Source of the DNA: Escherichia coli O157 typing phage 14
DNA length: 64,000 nucleotides
Sequence record: KP869112
Strand: one strand, 5' to 3'
The notes beneath the pieces were generated by a model. The model did no database searches, was not told the DNA's origin, and saw only the letters and a list, made by a program, of their open reading frames with translations. Made by a program: the position numbers and the translations under genes. This document shows positions 2,982-34,054 of this stretch, piece by piece; position 1 is the stretch's first letter; each line of letters begins with the position of its first letter.

Positions 2982-3010
2982 TTGACAAACAGGTAAGCTT
3001 TAGATATTAT
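2982..3010 (+). promoter_or_regulatory. sigma70-like promoter (TTGACA-N17-TATTAT)
   Basis: Hexamers read directly; upstream of ORF 3041. Confidence 0.55.
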
Positions 3011-3040
3011 TATCGGACAAGACAAGTAGAAGGAGATAGT

Positions 3041-3352
3041 ATGGCTACAATACAAGAAAGACTGAATAAAATATACTGCCTGTTTGTCTATAAAGGCGAG
3101 ACAATTTTGGCAAATAAAGGATACAAGAATGTGTGGATCAAGGACAGTGGTGGTAATATAATCAACTTAGCGTTGCTACGTGAGCGCCGACACAGATTCT
3201 TTATCGAGTCTCGGATTATTGAAAGCAGCACCTGCTACAGAACCGGCGATAAAGTAATTGTTGACAATGATACGTGGTATGTGGTAGACTGGCAATCATT
3301 GAGCTGTGATGCTTCTGACAATCGTAAGTATTCCCTAGTGATTGCTAAATAA
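3041..3352 (+). CDS. hypothetical protein (103 aa)
   Basis: ORF with GGAGA RBS; downstream of promoter. Confidence 0.5.
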   Translation: MATIQERLNKIYCLFVYKGETILANKGYKNVWIKDSGGNIINLALLRERRHRFFIESRIIESSTCYRTGDKVIVDNDTWYVVDWQSLSCDASDNRKYSLVIAK

Positions 3353-3412
3353 AGGTAAATGTGAATCAGGTTTAAATAAATAGCTTTCAACTTCCAATAT
3401 TAAGGATTTCTC

Positions 3413-4462
3413 ATGAATTTAACACCTCGCAGCACCATGGTACACGGCATGAAAGAAAAACAGAACGGTTTCGAACCTATGAGTAATAAAATGTTTGGTA
3501 TGCCGGGTGGTATTATGGAAACATACAGCTACCCAACACCTGTTGTTGACCACGTTCTTTATATCGACGATTTGGAAGACTTACAAGATCATATGTCTCG
3601 TCTGCAGACGATCCGTATGGCTCAGCCGGAAGAAAGCATTCGGGTGATCATCAATAGCCCTGGGGGTTGCGTGCACATTGCAATGGCTTATCTGCAGGCA
3701 TTCCGCGAGTCTCAGGCAAGCGTTGTTGCACATGCTGAAGGGATGTGCTGCTCTGCTGGAACAATCTTATGGCTTGGTTGTAAAGAACGTACTGTGGCTC
3801 CGGACACAGAATTTATGTTCCACTACTATCAAGGTGGCACTTATGGTAACGGTGTGAACATGAATACTCAGGTCAGCTACTGGAAAAAACGTTTTGAACG
3901 CCTGATCGAAAAATACTACGGTGGGGTGCTGACAGAAGATGAGATCGCATCCATCACAGCTGGTGGCGAAGTGTGGTTGGACGGAGAAGAGCTGGCAGCA
4001 CGCACTGGAGCTATTATTCTGGATGAAGGCAACATACAACGCATCCAGAACGGACAAAAACCGAAAAAGCTTCTGGCAAAAGGTGATGAAGAGGGCGTGT
4101 TAGGTGAAGCAGGTCTTCCGGAGATTCACCAGTGCACATCTTTAGATGAGTTAGTTCATGCTGTTGAATCTGCAAAAGCGGGTGGTTCGAAAGGTGATGT
4201 TCACACTGTGTTCCTGAATCTGCAGATGGAAAGTGGCGAGACCGTCCGAATTGCCCTGGGTGAGATTACTTCAGAAGATCTGCAGAGATTCTCTGTCGTT
4301 GAACTTCAGGATATTCTGTCTCAATTGAAGACTACTCTGAACGGCGGTGAAGAGGTTAAGGTGAAAGATAAGACTCGCAAGCGTCTGGTGGATAATATTA
4401 TTAAAACAGCAAAAGAGCTCAATGAAAAAATCCTGGGCGCAGGAATTGTCGAAGAAGTTTAA
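3413..4462 (+). CDS. ClpP-like (S14 family) serine protease with C-terminal extension
   Basis: INSPGG motif, candidate active-site Ser in GMCCSAG and His in FMFHYYQGG, matching ClpP catalytic layout. Confidence 0.6.
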   Translation: MNLTPRSTMVHGMKEKQNGFEPMSNKMFGMPGGIMETYSYPTPVVDHVLYIDDLEDLQDHMSRLQTIRMAQPEESIRVIINSPGGCVHIAMAYLQAFRESQASVVAHAEGMCCSAGTILWLGCKERTVAPDTEFMFHYYQGGTYGNGVNMNTQVSYWKKRFERLIEKYYGGVLTEDEIASITAGGEVWLDGEELAARTGAIILDEGNIQRIQNGQKPKKLLAKGDEEGVLGEAGLPEIHQCTSLDELVHAVESAKAGGSKGDVHTVFLNLQMESGETVRIALGEITSEDLQRFSVVELQDILSQLKTTLNGGEEVKVKDKTRKRLVDNIIKTAKELNEKILGAGIVEEV

Positions 4463-15639: not shown

Positions 15640-15668
15640 AGGACGCTCTGTGGCGTCCTTTTCTTTAT
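15640..15668 (+). terminator. rho-independent terminator
   Basis: AGGACGC-TCTGTG-GCGTCCT hairpin followed by TTTCTTT. Confidence 0.7.
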
Positions 15669-15828
15669 CTGGTGCACGATTGCATACCTTTGACAGATAA
15701 TCTCATTACAGAGCGTTTAAGAGCTTCCTACAAACAAATCTCTCTTTCGAGCGTAGCGAGAACGCACGTCCGTTTTGACCCAAATCACCATACGCTCGGA
15801 TTTTAACCAAACCCTCGCGGCGTTTCTA

Positions 15829-15857
15829 TTGACACATTACCGCTCCAGTGATAATAT
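15829..15857 (+). promoter_or_regulatory. sigma70-like promoter (TTGACA-N17-TAATAT)
   Basis: Hexamers read directly; a 29-codon hydrophobic ORF (15890..15979) and ORF 15976..16188 follow. Confidence 0.5.
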
Positions 15858-15975
15858 CCACACATAGTTTGTAGAATATGGGGTACACTATGAGAACATT
15901 GTCCGAAGTTTTGGTGGTGATCCTGATGATCATTACGTCCATAGCGGCTGTTGCCGGAATACTCACGGGTGGAAC

Positions 15976-16188
15976 ATGATAAACACACATGCATCTGAAG
16001 AGACATCCAAAGGAGTGACTATATGTCCCTTGGCTGAGCCAGTGAAAGAGGAAAACTTCGATTCTGAAGATTCTCCATCTTCGCTCCAGGTAGATCCTGA
16101 GGCTGATGACCTAACGTGGGAAGACATCGTAGATATCTGGTTCTCTATTATGCCTGAGCACGAAGAGTTCAGGGGTGGTAGACTATGA
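15976..16188 (+). CDS. small acidic protein (70 aa)
   Basis: ORF overlapping upstream mini-ORF stop (ATGA). Confidence 0.35.
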   Translation: MINTHASEETSKGVTICPLAEPVKEENFDSEDSPSSLQVDPEADDLTWEDIVDIWFSIMPEHEEFRGGRL

Positions 16189-16309
16189 AGCACCGAGCCC
16201 ACACAGGTTCCTCATGCTAAAGCATGGCCTGAAGAGGCAAACGTGCATAATTCCTGTACATTGGGACGTATAAAACCCTGTTCACATTCTCATTTCCAGA
16301 GGAGATTTC

Positions 16310-16525
16310 ATGAAGATAGAAATATTTGGTGGAGCTGACAATACTCGTGGCCTGATTTACCTTGAATTCGATGAATCATACCTGCCAGAGGTGTTAAATA
16401 TGGACTCTGTTGCTGATGCTTTGGGAGTAAGTCCTAAAGATCTCTACTCTGGTGCTGAGATTGATGGTTGGGAGGAGACCATGAACATTGATTTCAGTGA
16501 AGTAGGTGATGAACCACTGGACTGA
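16310..16525 (+). CDS. small acidic protein, MKVK-family-like
   Basis: MKIEIFGG...acidic C-terminus; GAGGAG RBS. Confidence 0.45.
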   Translation: MKIEIFGGADNTRGLIYLEFDESYLPEVLNMDSVADALGVSPKDLYSGAEIDGWEETMNIDFSEVGDEPLD

Positions 16526-18049
16526 CACACAATTAGCTACCCGGCTAAAGTGCTGGGAGCACCTATAACACATCTTTCAACTAAATTTCCTACCACCACA
16601 ATCACTTACCTCCCACACATGACTGTTTGCTTGTTTAGTGAGCAGTCATGCCTTGACATTCTTGCCTATCCTGATAAAATTAAGTTCTTCTCTTTTCTTT
16701 TACCGAGTAATTCGGGTTTTCTGTTCTCTTCGGTTTGAAGGGGTATGGAGATACACCTGAGTGAACAGGGTGAACAACCGAACCATTGGCTATGGCATTA
16801 GCATGGCGAAGCGGACGGGTGACGAAAGAGGGGCCGGAGGACACCAGTCACTGCCATATGATATATAGGTGATAACCTGAAGAGTCTGAATAAGTGTTTA
16901 AGTACCAGTCAGAGGAAAAGGTGAATGGTAGCCGAAGGGGGAGGGGGGTTTCTTGTATCTTTAATTTGTATATTATGTATACACTTGTAAACCAACACCA
17001 TCTGAATTTGCTTACCACACAAAGCGGATAGAGACAAATATTACCTATTAAACTTGAATTATTTATAGAAAATACCACAACACCACTTAAGTCTTTGATT
17101 TTACACATAAATCCTACAGATATTCACCCTCCATATTTAACATACTTGTAACATATCTATACCCAACCTGTCTGATCAACTCACCCAACTACATCCTCCA
17201 TATTTCCCCTGTCTGTACTACCCCTGCCCAGCCGGGAGTCCCGTCATATCTGGCTTTCCAGCAAATATCACACCCACAAATATCATTGCCTGAAGAGGGT
17301 TTCATCCCATAATACATGCCTTACCTGAAGAGCGCTTCATACACCACGTAAATTTTTTAATTGACCTGCAATTTTCCCGTCATGACCCCCTGCCCCGCCA
17401 GAGAGGTTGACTTTTCCCACACAGACCTGAAGAGCCAGCCAGAAATATCTGAACAGGTCCAGTTATACCACGATTTTGACCTGACCGACAGGAGTGCCTC
17501 CCTGTCAGGAGCCGGTAGCGACTGGAGTGCTGCCAGGCGGACGAAATGGGAATACTTCTCATTCTTATAATAATTCTCAAATATCGAGGCAGTGAGGCAA
17601 ATTAATAGGTGAGGCCGTTCACACAGTGGCACAACATTTGCAACCTATCTTGTGGGGTGAATGAGAATACCTATCATTGTGAGAATAGTTATCATTACGG
17701 GCAATTTAACATAATACCCATTATGCGCACCACTGGCGATACATACAGGGGTTGATAACATGAGTTACTGTTTACGCACATAACAATTATATTTCTTACT
17801 ATTTGTGTGGGATATAGTTAGCAGCCGATAGATTAGATATTGACCTGTAGACTTCCAACCGTCTAGACGTCTAAACGCCCACACAACAAGGCTTATACAT
17901 ACATCACTGAATGTAAACAGGACCGCAAAAATGCTACCATACAAGCTTGTAAATTTTTCATGCAGCACTTGACAAAGAGGAGGAAAACTTGTCTGACACA
18001 CTGGGCACAACATAACATACTGCAGCACAATATGACACAATAACGACTG

Positions 18050-18400
18050 TTATTATTTCATGTTTCACTGTTCACGTATAGATTGTTCCCGCATAGACTG
18101 TTTACGCCTGGATAGTTCACGCATAGATGATAAGCCATGCCATTCGTTTGCATGACAATAATTAACTTGTTTACAATAGATGACATAATATAAAAGCAGG
18201 GCAACTATTAGAAGATCATAGTTGCCTTGCTTGTTATGTCATGATTAACTAAATACAAGGCAACTATGATCTGATTAATAGATTGCAGACAAACTATCAC
18301 GGGGGTGATTGTTACTGCTTTTATATTATGTCGCGACTCCGTCGCGCCATGCCATTCGTTTGCATAGTTGCCTTATTGTTACAGATAAAATAATTGTATT
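18050..18400. repeat. cluster of direct and inverted short repeats in large non-coding region
   Basis: Four GTT(C/T)ACGCATAGA-like direct repeats at about 18060-18130; GGCAACTAT/ATAGTTGCC x4; CATGCCATTCGTTTGCAT x2; GACATAATATAAAAGCAG inverted pair. Confidence 0.6.
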
Positions 18401-18985
18401 GTTAATTATTTCTTATCTTTCTATTAGTCATCTAATGATTTCAGTTAGTATAGTAACGTACAGTAAACATTAGACGACTAAAGATTTCTCTGCTTATAAT
18501 AACCTAACGTGACAATTCCGGACTGTTTACGAAAAATGTTGACACCTGAGCTGATTTATGTTATGCAGTTTACACGAATAATTATTTTATGCAGGTATTG
18601 ACTATTCTGTTATTCTATGGTTGGAATAAATACTTAGCAGGCTATAGAATGGTGAGCGTACGTAAATTCTAAGATCTGGCGGCTATAGTTATGCCCGATT
18701 TTTCACGTAGAAAACGCTTTTATGAGTGTGTAAGTGTATGACTTATAAAGATTTTTAGTTGTTGACAAGATACTGAAGATGTGCATCAGGTTAAATTTTG
18801 TGCAATAGCGGCATTACGTGCAATTTTGGAAGGAAAAACGTGTAAAAAATGGCGCTGCTACCACACAATGAAAGATTATGCAATAGCTATTTTACATGTA
18901 TGTTTGTACAGTGGTGGTAATTGATGGCTTGTCGATTATTCCACTTGCCAGGCTGGGCCGTTTGTGGTAGGGGAAATACAGACAA

Positions 18986-19012
18986 AAAGAAAGGGGCCTT
19001 TTAAAGCCCCTG
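18986..19012 (-). terminator. rho-independent terminator (minus strand)
   Basis: GGGGC...GCCCC hairpin followed on minus strand by TTTCTTTTTG. Confidence 0.6.
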
Positions 19013-19029
19013 ATAGTTTAGTTAATAAA

Positions 19030-19449
19030 TTATAATGATTCGTATATTTCAAAAATCCGATTTGCCAGGTCGTTACGGTACCGGAATTTTTCTTCACGTT
19101 TGATCATTAGATCTTTGAAGCCGTATTCTTTAAGCACTTCATTAACTTTATAGCGGCATACCCTCATATTGTCTTGCGCGTCACCGATAAACTTGTTGCT
19201 ATGGTGCATGGCTTTAATTTCTTCTTCCAGGACCAGGGCAACTATGCGGACCGGATCAAGCTGATAGGCGGTAACATCCATGCGGCATTGTAAACGGCTT
19301 TTTACGTCTGCCACCGGGTATACTGCAACCTCTTCCCCGTCAACATTGACAATAATTAGTTTACCATCGATTTCGAATCCTTTCGCCGCCGGACCGTGAC
19401 AAAAAGCGTTATCAAAGCTATATGCCGGATTATTAGATTTGATGTTCAT
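19030..19449 (-). CDS. hypothetical protein (139 aa)
   Basis: ORF at distal end of minus-strand array; terminator downstream. Confidence 0.5.
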   Translation of the reverse strand: MNIKSNNPAYSFDNAFCHGPAAKGFEIDGKLIIVNVDGEEVAVYPVADVKSRLQCRMDVTAYQLDPVRIVALVLEEEIKAMHHSNKFIGDAQDNMRVCRYKVNEVLKEYGFKDLMIKREEKFRYRNDLANRIFEIYESL

Positions 19450-19596
19450 GGTGTTTTTACCTCTTAGTTAATTTTCTTACAACTTCCCTTCAAAAAAGAA
19501 TATAGCAAAACTGCCGATCCTTGTCAACCAAGGATAGCATAATTTTTATGTGATCAAGGGGCTTTATTGCCCCCTCTGATCGTGCAACTTGTTGTA

Positions 19597-31830: not shown

Positions 31831-31893
31831 AATACATCACTCTCTGTTAGTTTATGCGTATATTATACACTGCAGTTTTCAGATGTCAACCTC

Positions 31894-32145
31894 TTACAGA
31901 TTGCTCCAGTACAATCGGCATTTACATTTTGGGCAATGAGGTTCTTTTATGTAATAACCGTCAGTCTTTGGAACACTTTTTGGTGCAGTTTTAAGATTGT
32001 ACCTGGTAAAACATCGGAAGCAGGTTACCTCTCCCACCTGTTGATCGTTGATCCACTCACCGGAGTAAAGTTCTTTCTTGTTTCTCATAATTCTCTCCCA
32101 AATCCTCTGCAATCTTATACCAAAATCTCCAGCCAGAAAGCACAC
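31894..32145 (-). CDS. small zinc-ribbon-like protein
   Basis: CxxC...CxxC pairs (CFRCF...CPKCKC). Confidence 0.45.
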   Translation of the reverse strand: MCFLAGDFGIRLQRIWERIMRNKKELYSGEWINDQQVGEVTCFRCFTRYNLKTAPKSVPKTDGYYIKEPHCPKCKCRLYWSNL

Positions 32146-32339
32146 GGGAACACTTTGAGGATTGAATCTTTACCTGGTTCAGCAGTTCTTTTTCCGTAGG
32201 GTAGGTAGAAATACCCTCCTGCAGATTCGAACACAGCCCCTTCGGTTGTATCTATCACAGCTAGAATTAAGATTTTAGTCTCCACAGTGCTCTCCTCTCT
32301 TAGTTGTCGTGGAAACTATATCACCTCAGAAGATGGCCG

Positions 32340-32798
32340 TCAACACTTTTTGTACTCCACCACGACAATATCTATGTCGAAAGTGGCAAGGTTAATAACG
32401 TCCTCTACGTGTTCCCACTTCAAACCGCCTATGCCGCACCCGATCTTAGGGATGTAGAATGGTAAAGTCGATCCGCTGAATACTTCATTGACTAGCTCAA
32501 AGCCTTTCAGGATTGAGAAATACTCAGCATTAGGTCCTGGGTAGAACTGGGTATATAGATTGATTCCGTAGACAATACCTATCGGAGATAAGTGCTCCCA
32601 TCGGGAGAACGCACCCAGTTTACTTAGGCAACCGTATCTAGTCTCTTTGTCGGCTGACAGTGCTTGAGGAAACTCACGGGCAATCTGTTTTGCTATACCC
32701 TTGCCCATTGTGTGGAAGCAGTTACAACCGTGGATCAGGTGACCAGCACCGCTCTTAAAAAGGGAGATTAAATCTCCCTCTACAGTATCAATAATCAC
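32340..32798 (-). CDS. macro domain protein (ADP-ribose binding/processing)
   Basis: V-EGDL...HGCNCF...MGKGIA and C-terminal IPKIGCGIGG match macro-domain signatures; GTG start with GAGGAG RBS chosen (ORF track 32340..32879). Confidence 0.5.
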   Translation of the reverse strand: MIIDTVEGDLISLFKSGAGHLIHGCNCFHTMGKGIAKQIAREFPQALSADKETRYGCLSKLGAFSRWEHLSPIGIVYGINLYTQFYPGPNAEYFSILKGFELVNEVFSGSTLPFYIPKIGCGIGGLKWEHVEDVINLATFDIDIVVVEYKKC

Positions 32799-33213
32799 GG
32801 TAAGCCAGCTCCTCTTCCGCAATTTCAAAAAACTCAGTCCAGCACTGTGGCATATTGGAGTTACCGAAGTGGCTTTCATAGTAAAGGTTCTTACCGCTAG
32901 GAAGGTAGAAATCTGTTACCTCATAAAATCCACAATCGTCGCACTCACCTTCTTCAAACTTGGCCTTAACCTTAATACCGAGGAAGGTGAAAAGTTTATG
33001 GACATCTTCAGTTTCGAACTCCCAGGGAATGTTGTTTTCCGCATCGGTGTAGAACTGGATCAGCAGACCATTGTCCAGTTTACCAAAATACTCTGTGAAG
33101 TAACTTCCTTCCCAGAAATCTTTATGACAAATAATATCCATGCGTTTGCCCATAATAATGGTGTGAGCGTTTTGGGCATCGTCACGAATCAGTTTTGGCA
33201 TTTCATAGATCAT
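32788..33213 (-). CDS. hypothetical protein (141 aa)
   Basis: ORF in minus array. Confidence 0.5.
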   Translation of the reverse strand: MIYEMPKLIRDDAQNAHTIIMGKRMDIICHKDFWEGSYFTEYFGKLDNGLLIQFYTDAENNIPWEFETEDVHKLFTFLGIKVKAKFEEGECDDCGFYEVTDFYLPSGKNLYYESHFGNSNMPQCWTEFFEIAEEELAYRDY

Positions 33214-33992: not shown

Positions 33993-34054
33993 TTTTCAGA
34001 TCTCCTTATACAAAAATGCCCCACCCTTTCGGGCAGGGCTATGTTAACTAGATG

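What the first reader, a model, noticed from the sequence alone, without database searches (positions are those of the whole stretch)
32340..32798. Phage-encoded macro domain protein
Motifs V-EGDL...HGCNCF-TMGKGIA and IPKIGCGIGG match the ADP-ribose-binding macro fold. A macro domain in a lytic phage could reverse ADP-ribosylation of DNA or proteins, such as that imposed by DarT-type or other ADP-ribosyltransferase defenses, or process NAD-derived signals. Neighbouring genes are uncharacterised and may form a module with it.
Basis: partly seen in the sequence, partly recalled or inferred. Interest (0 to 1): 0.6.

Follow-up and report, generated by a model that had tools for sequence, protein, structure and literature searches.

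The report
Phage macrodomain, likely anti-DarT enzyme
This is a real 152-residue ADP-ribose-handling (macro domain) gene of an rV5-like E. coli phage, already annotated in public genomes, and it is a close relative of the phage T4 protein Tk.4/AdfM that lets T4 escape the DNA-ADP-ribosylating DarTG2 defence, so it is an expected new member of a known counter-defence family.

Summary

The window comes from a Vequintavirus (rV5-like E. coli phage). The same CDS is already annotated there as 'macro domain protein' or 'phosphatase'.

The protein is 39% identical (E 3e-41) to T4 Tk.4 and 69% identical to the Krischvirus protein at the tk.4 position. A 2025 preprint named Tk.4 AdfM and showed genetically that T4 needs it to resist DarTG2. 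The catalytic lysine of DarG/TARG1 is replaced by a nearly invariant glutamine (Q84), as in SCO6735, where that Gln is essential for removing ADP-ribose from thymidine in DNA.

A sister branch of the same phage family is Adpp, an ADPR-1''-phosphate phosphatase inside NARP1 operons. This phage has no NARP1 genes and lacks the Adpp-type sequence signature.

The neighbouring genes are not a conserved module.

Best reading: an orphan, antitoxin-like DNA de-ADP-ribosylase. This rests on homology and has not been tested for this phage. It is a new member of a known kind, of modest interest.

The parts
32340..32798 (-). CDS of the 152-aa stand-alone macrodomain protein (GTG start 32796-32798, TGA stop 32340-32342)
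   Evidence: Translation. An identical 459-nt CDS is annotated in HdK5, rV5_ev168 and FFH2. The AF2 model has pLDDT 96.9.
32809..32814 (-). GAGGAG Shine-Dalgarno-like sequence 10 nt upstream of the GTG start, inside the end of the upstream gene
   Evidence: Read directly from the sequence.
32718..32732 (-). Codons for H23-G24-C25-N26-C27. N26 is invariant and lies 58 residues before Q84, the same spacing as the reported active-site pair N22/K80 of Taq DarG. H23 aligns with Poa1p H23.
   Evidence: Conservation 223/226 for N26 and 219/226 for H23. Alignments to DarG and Poa1p. N22/K80 of DarG from PMC13309987.
32691..32708 (-). Codons for M31-G-K-G-I-A36, the first glycine-rich loop (counterpart of the phosphate-binding loop described for SCO6735)
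   Evidence: G34 and A36 are invariant. The loop aligns with MGKGIA of DarG and MGAGIA of TARG1. Loop naming from PMC9411070.
32547..32561 (-). Codons for N80-L-Y-T-Q84. Q84 takes the place of the catalytic Lys of DarG (K80) and TARG1 (K84).
   Evidence: Q occurs in 224/226 homologues. Alignment to 5m3i and 4j5r. SCO6735 Gln85 is the equivalent residue and is essential (PMC9411070).
32424..32450 (-). Codons for P117-K-I-G-C-G-I-G-G125, the second glycine-rich loop. It has G124 where TARG1 has the catalytic D125.
   Evidence: P117 and G120 are invariant. Alignment.
32788..33213 (-). Upstream 141-aa gene of unknown function (PHROG 8157). Its stop overlaps the macro start by 11 nt. It is adjacent to the macro gene but not a conserved partner.
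   Evidence: In Krischvirus RB49 its homologue lies about 9 kb from the macro gene.
32115..32285 (-). Downstream 56-aa gene of unknown function (PHROG 15268), in the same transcription direction
34018..34039 (-). Terminator-like hairpin (9-bp stem, 7 GC pairs, T run) that closes the preceding unit. The macro gene lies in the next group of small genes.
   Evidence: A terminator is annotated at the same place in HdK5.
31862..31889 (-). Perfect sigma-70 consensus promoter (TTGACA-16-TATAAT) that begins the next downstream unit. It indicates a region read by host RNA polymerase.
   Evidence: consensus match only.

Best explanation
The gene encodes an orphan, antitoxin-like ADP-ribosylglycohydrolase of the T4 Tk.4/AdfM type, a single macrodomain of the ALC1-like (TARG1/DarG/SCO6735/Poa1p) class.

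Proposed mechanism:
- When a host DarTG2-type system releases DarT2, that toxin attaches ADP-ribose to N3 of thymidine in single-stranded phage DNA and blocks replication.
- The phage enzyme binds the ADP-ribose between its two glycine-rich loops (31-MGKGIA-36 and 117-PKIGCGIGG-125).
- N26 and Q84 position the distal ribose. A water molecule then cleaves the ribose C1''-thymine bond, restoring unmodified DNA.
- Q84 replaces the catalytic lysine of DarG, as Gln85 does in SCO6735.
- The protein has no DarT-binding C-terminal domain, so it should act purely as an eraser.

Shown here: the gene, the fold, the class, the conserved residues, the close relationship to Tk.4, and the absence of NARP1 partner genes.

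Inferred: the substrate (thymidine-linked ADP-ribose on DNA), the water-mediated chemistry, and the counter-defence role in this phage.
For: (1) Fold and class.
- The AF2 model has pLDDT 96.9 and pTM 0.91.
- Foldseek agrees.
- The family profile hits 5m3i at 1.7e-17 and TARG1, SCO6735 and BT1257 at about 1e-16.

(2) Relationship to T4 Tk.4/AdfM.
- The protein is 39% identical to Tk.4 over its full length, E 3e-41, with a shared NLYTQF-PGPN-EY signature.
- It is 69% identical to the GEC-3S protein lying between vs and tk, the tk.4 position.
- A 59%-identical metagenomic homologue also sits between ValRS_modifier and TK.

(3) Function of the T4 relative. T4 tk.4 was the single HIDEN-SEQ hit under DarTG2, and a clean knock-out sensitised T4 to DarTG2 (bioRxiv 10.1101/2025.11.20.689424).

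(4) Chemistry of the class.
- DarG, TARG1 and SCO6735 all hydrolyse DarT-made thymidine-ADP-ribose on DNA.
- SCO6735 has Gln85 at the catalytic-lysine position, and Q85A abolishes activity (PMC9411070).
- Q84 is present in 224/226 homologues here.

(5) Genomic contexts of close homologues.
- One sits three genes upstream of a NADAR gene, the known anti-DarT1 domain.
- Two lie inside DnaB/AAA_24/primase replication modules.
- None of seven is next to NARP1 genes.

(6) No NARP1 partner. No Adps or Namat homologue was found in the window or in the whole FFH2 genome.

(7) Sequence signature. None of about 129 NARP1-associated macro proteins has 'YTQF' or 'PGPN'.

(8) Purifying selection. There are 14 synonymous and 5 non-synonymous codon differences against FFH2.
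Against: - No experiment exists for any rV5-like phage. The Bas54 (Vequintavirinae) transposon library is not reported as having been run against DarTG2.
- The T4 evidence is genetic only and comes from a preprint. De-ADP-ribosylation by a Tk.4-type protein has not been shown in vitro.
- The same phage family contains Adpp, a proven ADPR-1''-phosphate phosphatase, which shares the H-x-C-N-C, MG-x-GIA, A-D, Y-x-Q and IGCG-x-GG motifs. Catalytic residues therefore do not separate the two activities.
- The best PDB hit does not discriminate either: Gary Adpp hits TARG1 and SCO6735 best.
- The NJ grouping with T4 Tk.4 has weak support (45%), and one NARP1-associated macro protein falls in the wider Tk.4-containing clade.
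- The protein is mildly acidic (pI 5.9), whereas DarG, TARG1 and BT1257 are basic (pI 8.6-8.9). T4 Tk.4 is equally acidic, however.
Confidence: 0.6

Rival explanations
1. It is an Adpp-like ADP-ribose-1''-phosphate phosphatase. It would convert ADPR-1''-P, the product of RES-domain NAD+ phosphorylases such as the aRES defence, into ADP-ribose. This could be its main job or a second activity of the same active site.
For: - Adpp of Vibrio phage Gary is a homologue from the same phage macro family. The near-identical Ceto protein is 34% identical to the window protein (73 bits) and carries the same conserved motifs.
- H23 matches Poa1p H23 and T30 aligns with Poa1p S30. The entries 6lfs and 6lft are H23A and S30A mutants of Poa1p.
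- RefSeq and PHROG label the family 'phosphatase'.
- E. coli strains carry aRES.
Against: - ADPR-1P dephosphorylation helps a phage only if NARP1 (Adps plus Namat) then rebuilds NAD+. Neither gene is present in the window or in the complete FFH2 genome.
- The Adpp-type signature YGQY (103 of about 129 NARP1-linked proteins) and its longer loop are absent here. 'YTQF' and 'PGPN' never occur among the NARP1-linked proteins.
- The nearest characterised relative is Tk.4 (122 bits), not Adpp (73 bits).
Confidence: 0.17
2. It is a general de-ADP-ribosylase or O-acetyl-ADP-ribose deacetylase acting on proteins, RNA or small molecules. Examples would be reversing host ART toxins other than DarT2, or working with the phage's own Sir2-like enzyme.
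For: - TARG1 and SCO6735 also remove ADP-ribose from Glu/Asp of proteins.
- TARG1 is deposited in the PDB as O-acetyl-ADP-ribose deacetylase 1.
- rV5-like FFH2 encodes a Sir2-like protein (ORF77) and a nucleotide pyrophosphohydrolase (ORF78) elsewhere in the genome.
- The protein is acidic rather than basic.
Against: - The Sir2-like gene lies about 52 kb away in FFH2.
- No ADP-ribosyltransferase is annotated in the FFH2 genome.
- The only phenotype reported for a Tk.4-type protein is DarTG2 sensitivity.
- SCO6735 prefers DNA over protein substrates.
Confidence: 0.13
3. It is a non-catalytic ADP-ribose binder: a reader or sponge for ADP-ribose-derived signals, or a shield for modified DNA. The catalytic lysine is missing.
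For: - Q84 replaces the DarG/TARG1 lysine.
- Catalytically dead SCO6735 Q85A still inhibits DarT.
Against: - Gln at this position is catalytically essential in SCO6735, not inactivating.
- Adpp, which has the same Gln, is an active enzyme.
- N26, Q84, H23 and D50 are nearly invariant, as expected for an active site.
Confidence: 0.04

Closest known systems
T4 Tk.4 = AdfM (anti-DarT factor, macrodomain), Tevenvirinae (bioRxiv 10.1101/2025.11.20.689424)
   Same: - Stand-alone macrodomain of about 150 aa.
- 39% identity over the full length (E 3e-41).
- Identical HGCNCFHTMG and NLYTQF-PGPN-EY motifs, and Gln at the catalytic-lysine position.
- Encoded by a lytic E. coli myovirus without NARP1.
- The Krischvirus protein at the tk.4 position is 69% identical.
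   Different: - The genomic position differs: here it lies in an array of small genes of unknown function downstream of the replication genes, not between vs and tk.
- It has not been tested against DarTG2.
Adpp, the macrodomain ADPR-1''-phosphate phosphatase of NARP1-AP operons (Vibrio phage Gary; bioRxiv 10.64898/2026.01.28.702374)
   Same: Same phage macro family and the same conserved residues (H, N, D, Q and the glycine-rich loops). About 34% identity to the near-identical Ceto protein.
   Different: - Adpp sits between or beside Adps and Namat. This phage has neither gene.
- Adpp-type proteins carry 'YGQY' and a loop 3-8 residues longer after the Gln.
- They form separate clades in the NJ tree.
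SCO6735 / BT1257 subgroup of ALC1-like macrodomains (PMC9411070)
   Different: - Only 21-23% identity.
- These are cellular proteins.
- They have the longer 'mobile loop' with extra lysines, which the window protein lacks.
- They are basic, whereas this protein is acidic.
DarG antitoxin of DarTG2 (Taq and Mtb DarG; PDB 5M31, 5M3E, 5M3I)
   Same: Best sequence hit in the PDB (5m3i). The NCBIfam and PADLOC DarG models match residues 5-144/148. GG follows IG-x-G, as in DarG.
   Different: - No C-terminal DarT-binding domain.
- No adjacent darT gene.
- Gln instead of Lys80.
- 46.8 bits against the 250-bit equivalog cut-off.
Chimallivirus AdfM (PhiKZ gp104; PMC13309987)
   Same: A phage-encoded orphan macrodomain that counters DarTG2 by removing ADP-ribose from DNA. 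It carries the same name, AdfM.
   Different: - It is described as DarG2-like, with a catalytic Lys (N23/K78), and is imported into the phage nucleus.
- The window protein is the Gln type.
- No direct sequence comparison with PhiKZ gp104 was made here.
Yeast Poa1p (PDB 6LFQ-6LFU)
   Different: Eukaryotic tRNA-splicing by-product phosphatase. About 25% identity, with larger insertions (180 aa).

Membership tests
Macro domain superfamily (Pfam PF01661) | Score above the Pfam gathering threshold | tested here: met
   28 bits against a cut-off of 22, E 2.2e-6. Only residues 22-52 are matched.
Macro domain superfamily (Pfam PF01661) | Three-layer alpha/beta/alpha macro fold | tested here: met
Macro domain superfamily (Pfam PF01661) | Two glycine-rich loops that hold the diphosphate and distal ribose of ADP-ribose | tested here: met
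   31-MGKGIA-36 and 119-IGCGIGG-125. G34, A36 and G120 are invariant, and G122 and G125 nearly so.
ALC1-like (TARG1/DarG/SCO6735/Poa1p) macrodomain class | Closest structural and sequence neighbours are members of this class rather than MacroD, viral or PARG types | tested here: met
DarG antitoxin (NCBIfam NF048014 equivalog) | Whole-protein score above the equivalog cut-off, i.e. macrodomain plus C-terminal DarT-binding domain | tested here: not met
   46.8 bits against 250. Only profile positions 3-141 of 338 are matched, and the protein ends at residue 152.
DarG antitoxin (NCBIfam NF048014 equivalog) | Catalytic lysine (Taq DarG K80) | tested here: not met
   Q84 aligns with that Lys. Q occurs in 224/226 family members.
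DarG antitoxin (NCBIfam NF048014 equivalog) | Encoded next to a darT toxin gene | tested here: not met
   No DarT-like product is annotated in the complete FFH2 genome or in the related records. The three flanking genes that were scanned have no PADLOC or NCBIfam hit. No profile-level search for DarT was run over all genes.
AdfM, T4 Tk.4 type | Full-length homology to T4 Tk.4, including its signature motifs | tested here: met
   39% identity, E 3e-41, residues 1-150 against 1-152, with NLYTQF-PGPN-EY shared. 69% and 59% identity to proteins at the tk.4 position.
AdfM, T4 Tk.4 type | Loss of the gene sensitises the phage to DarTG2 | not testable with these tools
   Shown for T4 only. No data exist for Vequintavirus.
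AdfM, T4 Tk.4 type | Hydrolysis of thymidine-linked ADP-ribose on ssDNA | not testable with these tools
   Not yet shown in vitro even for T4 Tk.4. Shown for PhiKZ AdfM, DarG, TARG1 and SCO6735.
Adpp (NARP1-AP phosphatase) | Gene lies within or beside an Adps-Namat (NARP1) operon | tested here: not met
   tblastn with Ceto Adps and Namat finds nothing in the window or in the whole FFH2 genome at E<=1. None is annotated.
Adpp (NARP1-AP phosphatase) | Sequence signature of NARP1-associated macro proteins (YGQY or YTQY followed by a long loop) | tested here: not met
   The window has YTQF-PGPN with an 8-residue loop. 'YTQF' and 'PGPN' occur 0 times among about 129 NARP1-linked proteins.
Adpp (NARP1-AP phosphatase) | ADPR-1''-phosphate phosphatase activity | not testable with these tools
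   The conserved residues are shared with Adpp, so the activity cannot be excluded.
SCO6735/BT1257 subgroup | Gln at the position of the catalytic Lys | tested here: met
   Q84 aligns with the Q of BT1257 'MIGQHG'. SCO6735 Gln85 is stated to be equivalent to K80/K84.
SCO6735/BT1257 subgroup | Mobile loop about 5 residues longer than in DarG and TARG1 | tested here: not met
   Q84..Y93 spans 8 residues, whereas BT1257 needs an insertion in the alignment.

The most novel reading that the evidence does not exclude
The Gln-type phage macrodomains (Tk.4/AdfM and Adpp) may be one promiscuous enzyme family whose single active site cleaves any 1''-linked leaving group on ADP-ribose. On that reading this protein would disarm two mechanistically different NAD+-consuming defences at once. 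It would erase DarT2's thymidine-ADP-ribose from DNA and also dephosphorylate ADPR-1''-P made by RES-type systems. It would use a lysine-free, water-mediated mechanism marked by the family-specific invariant residues D50, Y82 and Q84.
Probability: 0.2. Interest if true: 0.55.

Novelty: new member of a known kind. Interest (0 to 1): 0.3.

Why it matters
- rV5-like phages (Vequintavirus) are broad-host-range E. coli phages used in therapy and biocontrol work. Knowing that they probably carry an anti-DarTG2 eraser helps predict which host defences they can tolerate.
- The analysis places the Vequintavirus gene in the Tk.4/AdfM branch rather than the Adpp branch of a very large phage macrodomain family, which matches 2771 of 50,697 phage records.
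- It provides a simple sequence and context rule that separates the two branches: YTQF-PGPN without NARP1 genes, against YGQY with a long loop beside NARP1 genes.
- It points out that the T4-type AdfM lacks the DarG lysine and resembles SCO6735, which is a testable mechanistic point.
- None of this changes the general picture, because the family, its fold and both counter-defence roles are already published.

Tried and rejected
- **Longer 179-aa ORF from the ATG at 32879.** Rejected, because homologues and the public annotations start at the GTG.
- **Conserved module with the neighbours.** Rejected. The 141-aa neighbour has a narrow distribution and is unlinked in Krischvirus. The neighbours have only unknown-function PHROGs and no Pfam, NCBIfam or PADLOC hits, apart from an 83-aa Zn-binding protein.
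- **True DarG.** Rejected. The score is below the cut-off, there is no C-terminal domain, no Lys and no darT.
- **Best PDB hit (Mtb DarG) as evidence of function.** Rejected as non-discriminating, because the proven phosphatase Adpp hits TARG1 and SCO6735 best.
- **NARP1 partner genes.** Searched for in the window and in a complete related genome; none found.
- **NADAR (AdfN) in rV5-like phages.** The literature reports NADARs only in Bas60-62 among the BASEL Vequintavirinae. I did not scan all window ORFs.
- **Apparent truncation of the gene in phage 241Ecol014PP.** This is an annotation choice only; the DNA is 100% identical over 459 nt.
- **Rfam scan of the window.** No hits.
- **Literature search for 'AdfM' alone.** Swamped by unrelated 'adfm' strings. 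Two searches failed on term syntax.
- **JACS 2026 paper on ADP-ribosylated oligonucleotides.** Contains nothing on phage macrodomains.
- **Active-site geometry in the AF2 model.** Could not be inspected, because coordinates are not exposed. The Poa1p residue equivalent to Q84 could not be read either.

Full report
**1. What is in the sequence**

The minus strand of window 32340..32798 is an open frame of 152 codons plus a stop. It begins with GTG and translates to MIIDTVEGDLISLFKSGAGHLIHGCNCFHTMGKGIAKQIAREFPQALSADKETRYGCLSKLGAFSRWEHLSPIGIVYGINLYTQFYPGPNAEYFSILKGFELVNEVFSGSTLPFYIPKIGCGIGGLKWEHVEDVINLATFDIDIVVVEYKKC.

The mechanical ORF runs further upstream, to an ATG at 32879. The GTG is the real start for three reasons:
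- Homologues align from residue 1.
- A GAGGAG sequence lies 10 nt upstream.
- GenBank and RefSeq records of related phages annotate exactly this 459-nt CDS.

Compared with the FFH2 orthologue there are 14 synonymous and 5 non-synonymous codon differences, which indicates purifying selection.

**2. Where the window comes from**

The surrounding 4 kb is 95-99% identical to more than 100 Vequintavirus genomes (rV5-like E. coli myoviruses). In those records the gene is already named 'macro domain protein', 'phosphatase', or 'T4-like protein ... with Macro domain, Poa1p_like family, T4 GC 1557'. The bare observation 'phage-encoded macro domain' is therefore already in the databases.

**3. Fold and class**

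- Pfam Macro is above threshold (28 bits against 22) but covers only residues 22-52. PHROG 335 ('phosphatase') matches at 2e-59.
- An AlphaFold2 model built on 63 homologues is very confident: pLDDT 96.9, pTM 0.91.
- A family profile hits the same solved proteins at 1e-17 to 3e-13.

The protein is therefore a single-domain member of the ALC1-like (TARG1/DarG/SCO6735/Poa1p) class.

**4. Active site**

Conservation across 226 homologues:

| Residue(s) | Count out of 226 |
|---|---|
| G24 | 221 |
| N26 | 223 |
| G34, N80, Q84, P117, G120, D50, Y82 | 224 each |
| A36 | 222 |
| H23 | 219 |

In the alignments to DarG and TARG1, Q84 occupies the position of the catalytic lysine: DarG 'PTK', TARG1 'ITK' K84. 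G124 stands where TARG1 has D125, as in DarG.

BT1257 also has Gln at that position. The SCO6735 paper states that Gln85 is the structural equivalent of K80/K84 and that Q85A abolishes hydrolysis of thymidine-linked ADP-ribose on DNA. It also reports that SCO6735 protects cells from DarT and proposes a water-mediated mechanism (PMC9411070).

N26 lies 58 residues before Q84, the same spacing as N22 and K80 in Taq DarG.

**5. Closest characterised relatives**

(a) T4 Tk.4.
- Identity is 39% over the full length, E 3e-41, with identical HGCNCFHTMG and NLYTQF-PGPN-EY segments.
- A preprint from November 2025 found tk.4 to be the single conditionally essential T4 gene in the presence of DarTG2. A clean knock-out became DarTG2-sensitive. 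The authors named the gene adfM.
- The Krischvirus GEC-3S protein lying between vs and tk, the tk.4 position, is 69% identical to the window protein.
- A 59%-identical metagenomic protein sits between ValRS_modifier and TK.
- The Vequintavirus gene therefore belongs to the tk.4 lineage and appears to have been exchanged between Krischvirus and Vequintavirus.

(b) Adpp.
- A January 2026 preprint showed that macro proteins embedded in NARP1 operons (Vibrio phage Gary) dephosphorylate ADPR-1''-phosphate. That molecule is the product of the RES-domain defence aRES, and its dephosphorylation lets NARP1 rebuild NAD+.
- I had noticed the same arrangement independently in Vibrio phage Ceto and Pseudomonas phage PA10. 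Both are listed in that paper's Table S1.
- These proteins are 34% identical to the window protein (73-79 bits) and share its conserved residues.

(c) Chimallivirus AdfM (PhiKZ gp104) removes DarT2 marks from DNA in vitro, but it is described as DarG2-like with a catalytic lysine.

**6. Which branch does the window protein belong to?**

- Pairwise scores: 214 bits to GEC-3S, 122 to Tk.4 and 70-79 to the NARP1-linked proteins.
- In an NJ tree it groups with the tk.4-position proteins. The inner clade has 100% support, but the link to T4 Tk.4 has only 45%. The Gary/Ceto and Pakpunavirus proteins form separate clades. One NARP1-linked Acinetobacter phage protein falls in the wider Tk.4-containing clade.
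- Among about 129 NARP1-linked macro proteins, 103 contain 'YGQY' and 13 contain 'YTQY'. None contains 'YTQF' or 'PGPN'.
- Among the 226 closest homologues of the window protein, 192 have YTQ[FY] and one has YGQY. The short 8-residue loop after the Gln is the commonest form, in 128 of 226.
- Neither the window nor the complete genome of the related phage FFH2 encodes an Adps or Namat homologue. An Adpp activity would therefore have no pathway to feed.
- Contexts of seven close homologues: one at the tk.4 position; one three genes upstream of a NADAR gene (NADAR is the anti-DarT1 eraser domain); two inside DnaB/AAA_24/primase replication modules; one beside a second macro gene; one near an RNA ligase; and one in a bacterial contig. 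None is next to NARP1 genes.

**7. Surroundings**

The gene lies in a long minus-strand array of small genes downstream of the replication genes. A strong terminator-like hairpin at 34039-34018 precedes the group that contains it. A perfect sigma-70 consensus promoter at 31889-31862 follows.

The upstream 141-aa gene overlaps the macro start by 11 nt but is not a conserved partner. It occurs in 176 phage records, against 2771 for the macro gene. In Krischvirus RB49 it lies about 9 kb from the macro gene. All the neighbours have unknown-function PHROGs. Only the 83-aa gene at 31894..32145 has a Pfam hit, a phage zinc-binding domain.

In other phages the macro gene has quite different neighbours. 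The 'module' suggestion is not supported. The gene behaves as a mobile accessory gene.

**8. Mechanism and confidence**

The most likely function (0.6) is an orphan, antitoxin-like eraser that removes DarT2-installed ADP-ribose from thymidine in single-stranded phage DNA. It would use the Gln-type, lysine-free chemistry described for SCO6735, and it has no DarT-binding domain.

The gene, fold, class, residues, relationship to Tk.4 and lack of NARP1 are shown here. The substrate and the biological role are inferred.

Points against:
- No rV5-like phage has been tested.
- The T4 evidence is genetic only and comes from a preprint.
- Adpp shares the catalytic residues.
- The best PDB hit does not discriminate, because Gary Adpp hits TARG1 and SCO6735 best.
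- The protein is acidic (pI 5.9), unlike the basic DarG, TARG1 and BT1257, although T4 Tk.4 is equally acidic.

Rival explanations:
- ADPR-1''-P phosphatase, as the main or a second activity (0.17).
- A general protein, RNA or OAADPr hydrolase, perhaps linked to the phage Sir2-like gene seen in FFH2 (0.13).
- A non-catalytic binder (0.04).

**9. Verdict**

The finding is not new in kind:
- The gene is annotated in public records.
- The family is very large, with 4381 cluster representatives at E<=1e-3.
- Both counter-defence roles of phage macrodomains of this family were published in 2025-2026.

This is a new, untested member of a known kind, and interest is modest (0.3). The most novel reading still open is that the Gln-type phage macrodomains are bifunctional erasers that defeat both DarT2 and RES-type defences.

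Noticed in passing
window 16700-19000, especially 18130-18385: An ORF-poor region of about 2 kb lies where plus-strand genes end and minus-strand genes begin. It contains an AT-rich patch (GC 0.35) packed with repeats. A 20-nt direct repeat, GCCATGCCATTCGTTTGCAT, occurs twice, 212 nt apart. Several perfect 15-18-nt inverted repeats are built on CAAGGCAACTAT. [quoted passage not shown] It may be an origin or a regulatory hub. Rfam finds nothing there.
   Followed up: partly
L006 (Vibrio phage Ceto) 3135-6149; L012 (Pseudomonas phage PA10) 469-3980: Homologues of the macro protein sit between or just after the ribose-phosphate pyrophosphokinase-like (Adps) and nicotinamide phosphoribosyltransferase-like (Namat) genes. 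This turned out to be the published NARP1-AP arrangement, in which the macro protein is the ADPR-1''-P phosphatase Adpp.
   Followed up: yes
L016 4001-5737 (metagenomic phage contig, homologue P0018): A 45%-identical macro gene lies three genes upstream of a NADAR-domain gene, next to Thg1 and RNA ligase 2. This may be an island combining anti-DarT2 (macro) and anti-DarT1 (NADAR) erasers.
   Followed up: no
L019 4001-5391 (metagenomic phage contig, homologue P0029): Two different macro-domain genes lie two genes apart in one phage, which suggests they have different substrate specificities.
   Followed up: no
L005 (Krischvirus GEC-3S) 3001-3456; window 32340-33213: The Vequintavirus macro protein is 69% identical to the Krischvirus protein at the tk.4 position but only 39% identical to T4 Tk.4. 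The adjacent 141-aa gene also has its only non-Vequintavirus homologues (about 40% identity) in Krischvirus, where it is unlinked to the macro gene. This points to gene exchange between these two groups of E. coli phages.
   Followed up: partly
window 33993-34054: In several close relatives (rV5_ev168, 241Ecol014PP, CM1, I29) an endonuclease gene of about 0.6 kb, annotated as endonuclease or endonuclease VII, is inserted between the 138-aa gene and the 408-aa gene. The window lacks it and has only the terminator hairpin there. This is a presence/absence polymorphism, possibly of a mobile endonuclease gene.
   Followed up: partly
whole window (best DNA match): The best match (99.0%) is a record named 'Campylobacter phage C12'. 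Sixteen 'Campylobacter phage' records are essentially rV5-like E. coli phage genomes, so host mislabelling or contamination of those entries seems likely.
   Followed up: no
window 31894-32145 (minus strand): The 83-aa protein two genes downstream of the macro gene matches Pfam PF23903, phage zinc-binding domain (1.6e-22). Its function is unknown.
   Followed up: no
L008 (FFH2) 15646-19498, outside the window: rV5-like genomes encode a cluster of phosphoesterase, ATPase, RNA ligase-like, Sir2-like (ORF77) and nucleotide pyrophosphohydrolase (ORF78) genes. The phage Sir2-like enzyme is another NAD+-using protein whose relation to the macro gene is unknown.
   Followed up: no
L010 (Felixounavirus FM4b) 3495-4280: The Felix O1-like homologue is 261 aa. 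It is a macrodomain with an extra C-terminal region of about 100 residues of unknown function, unlike the stand-alone domain here.
   Followed up: no
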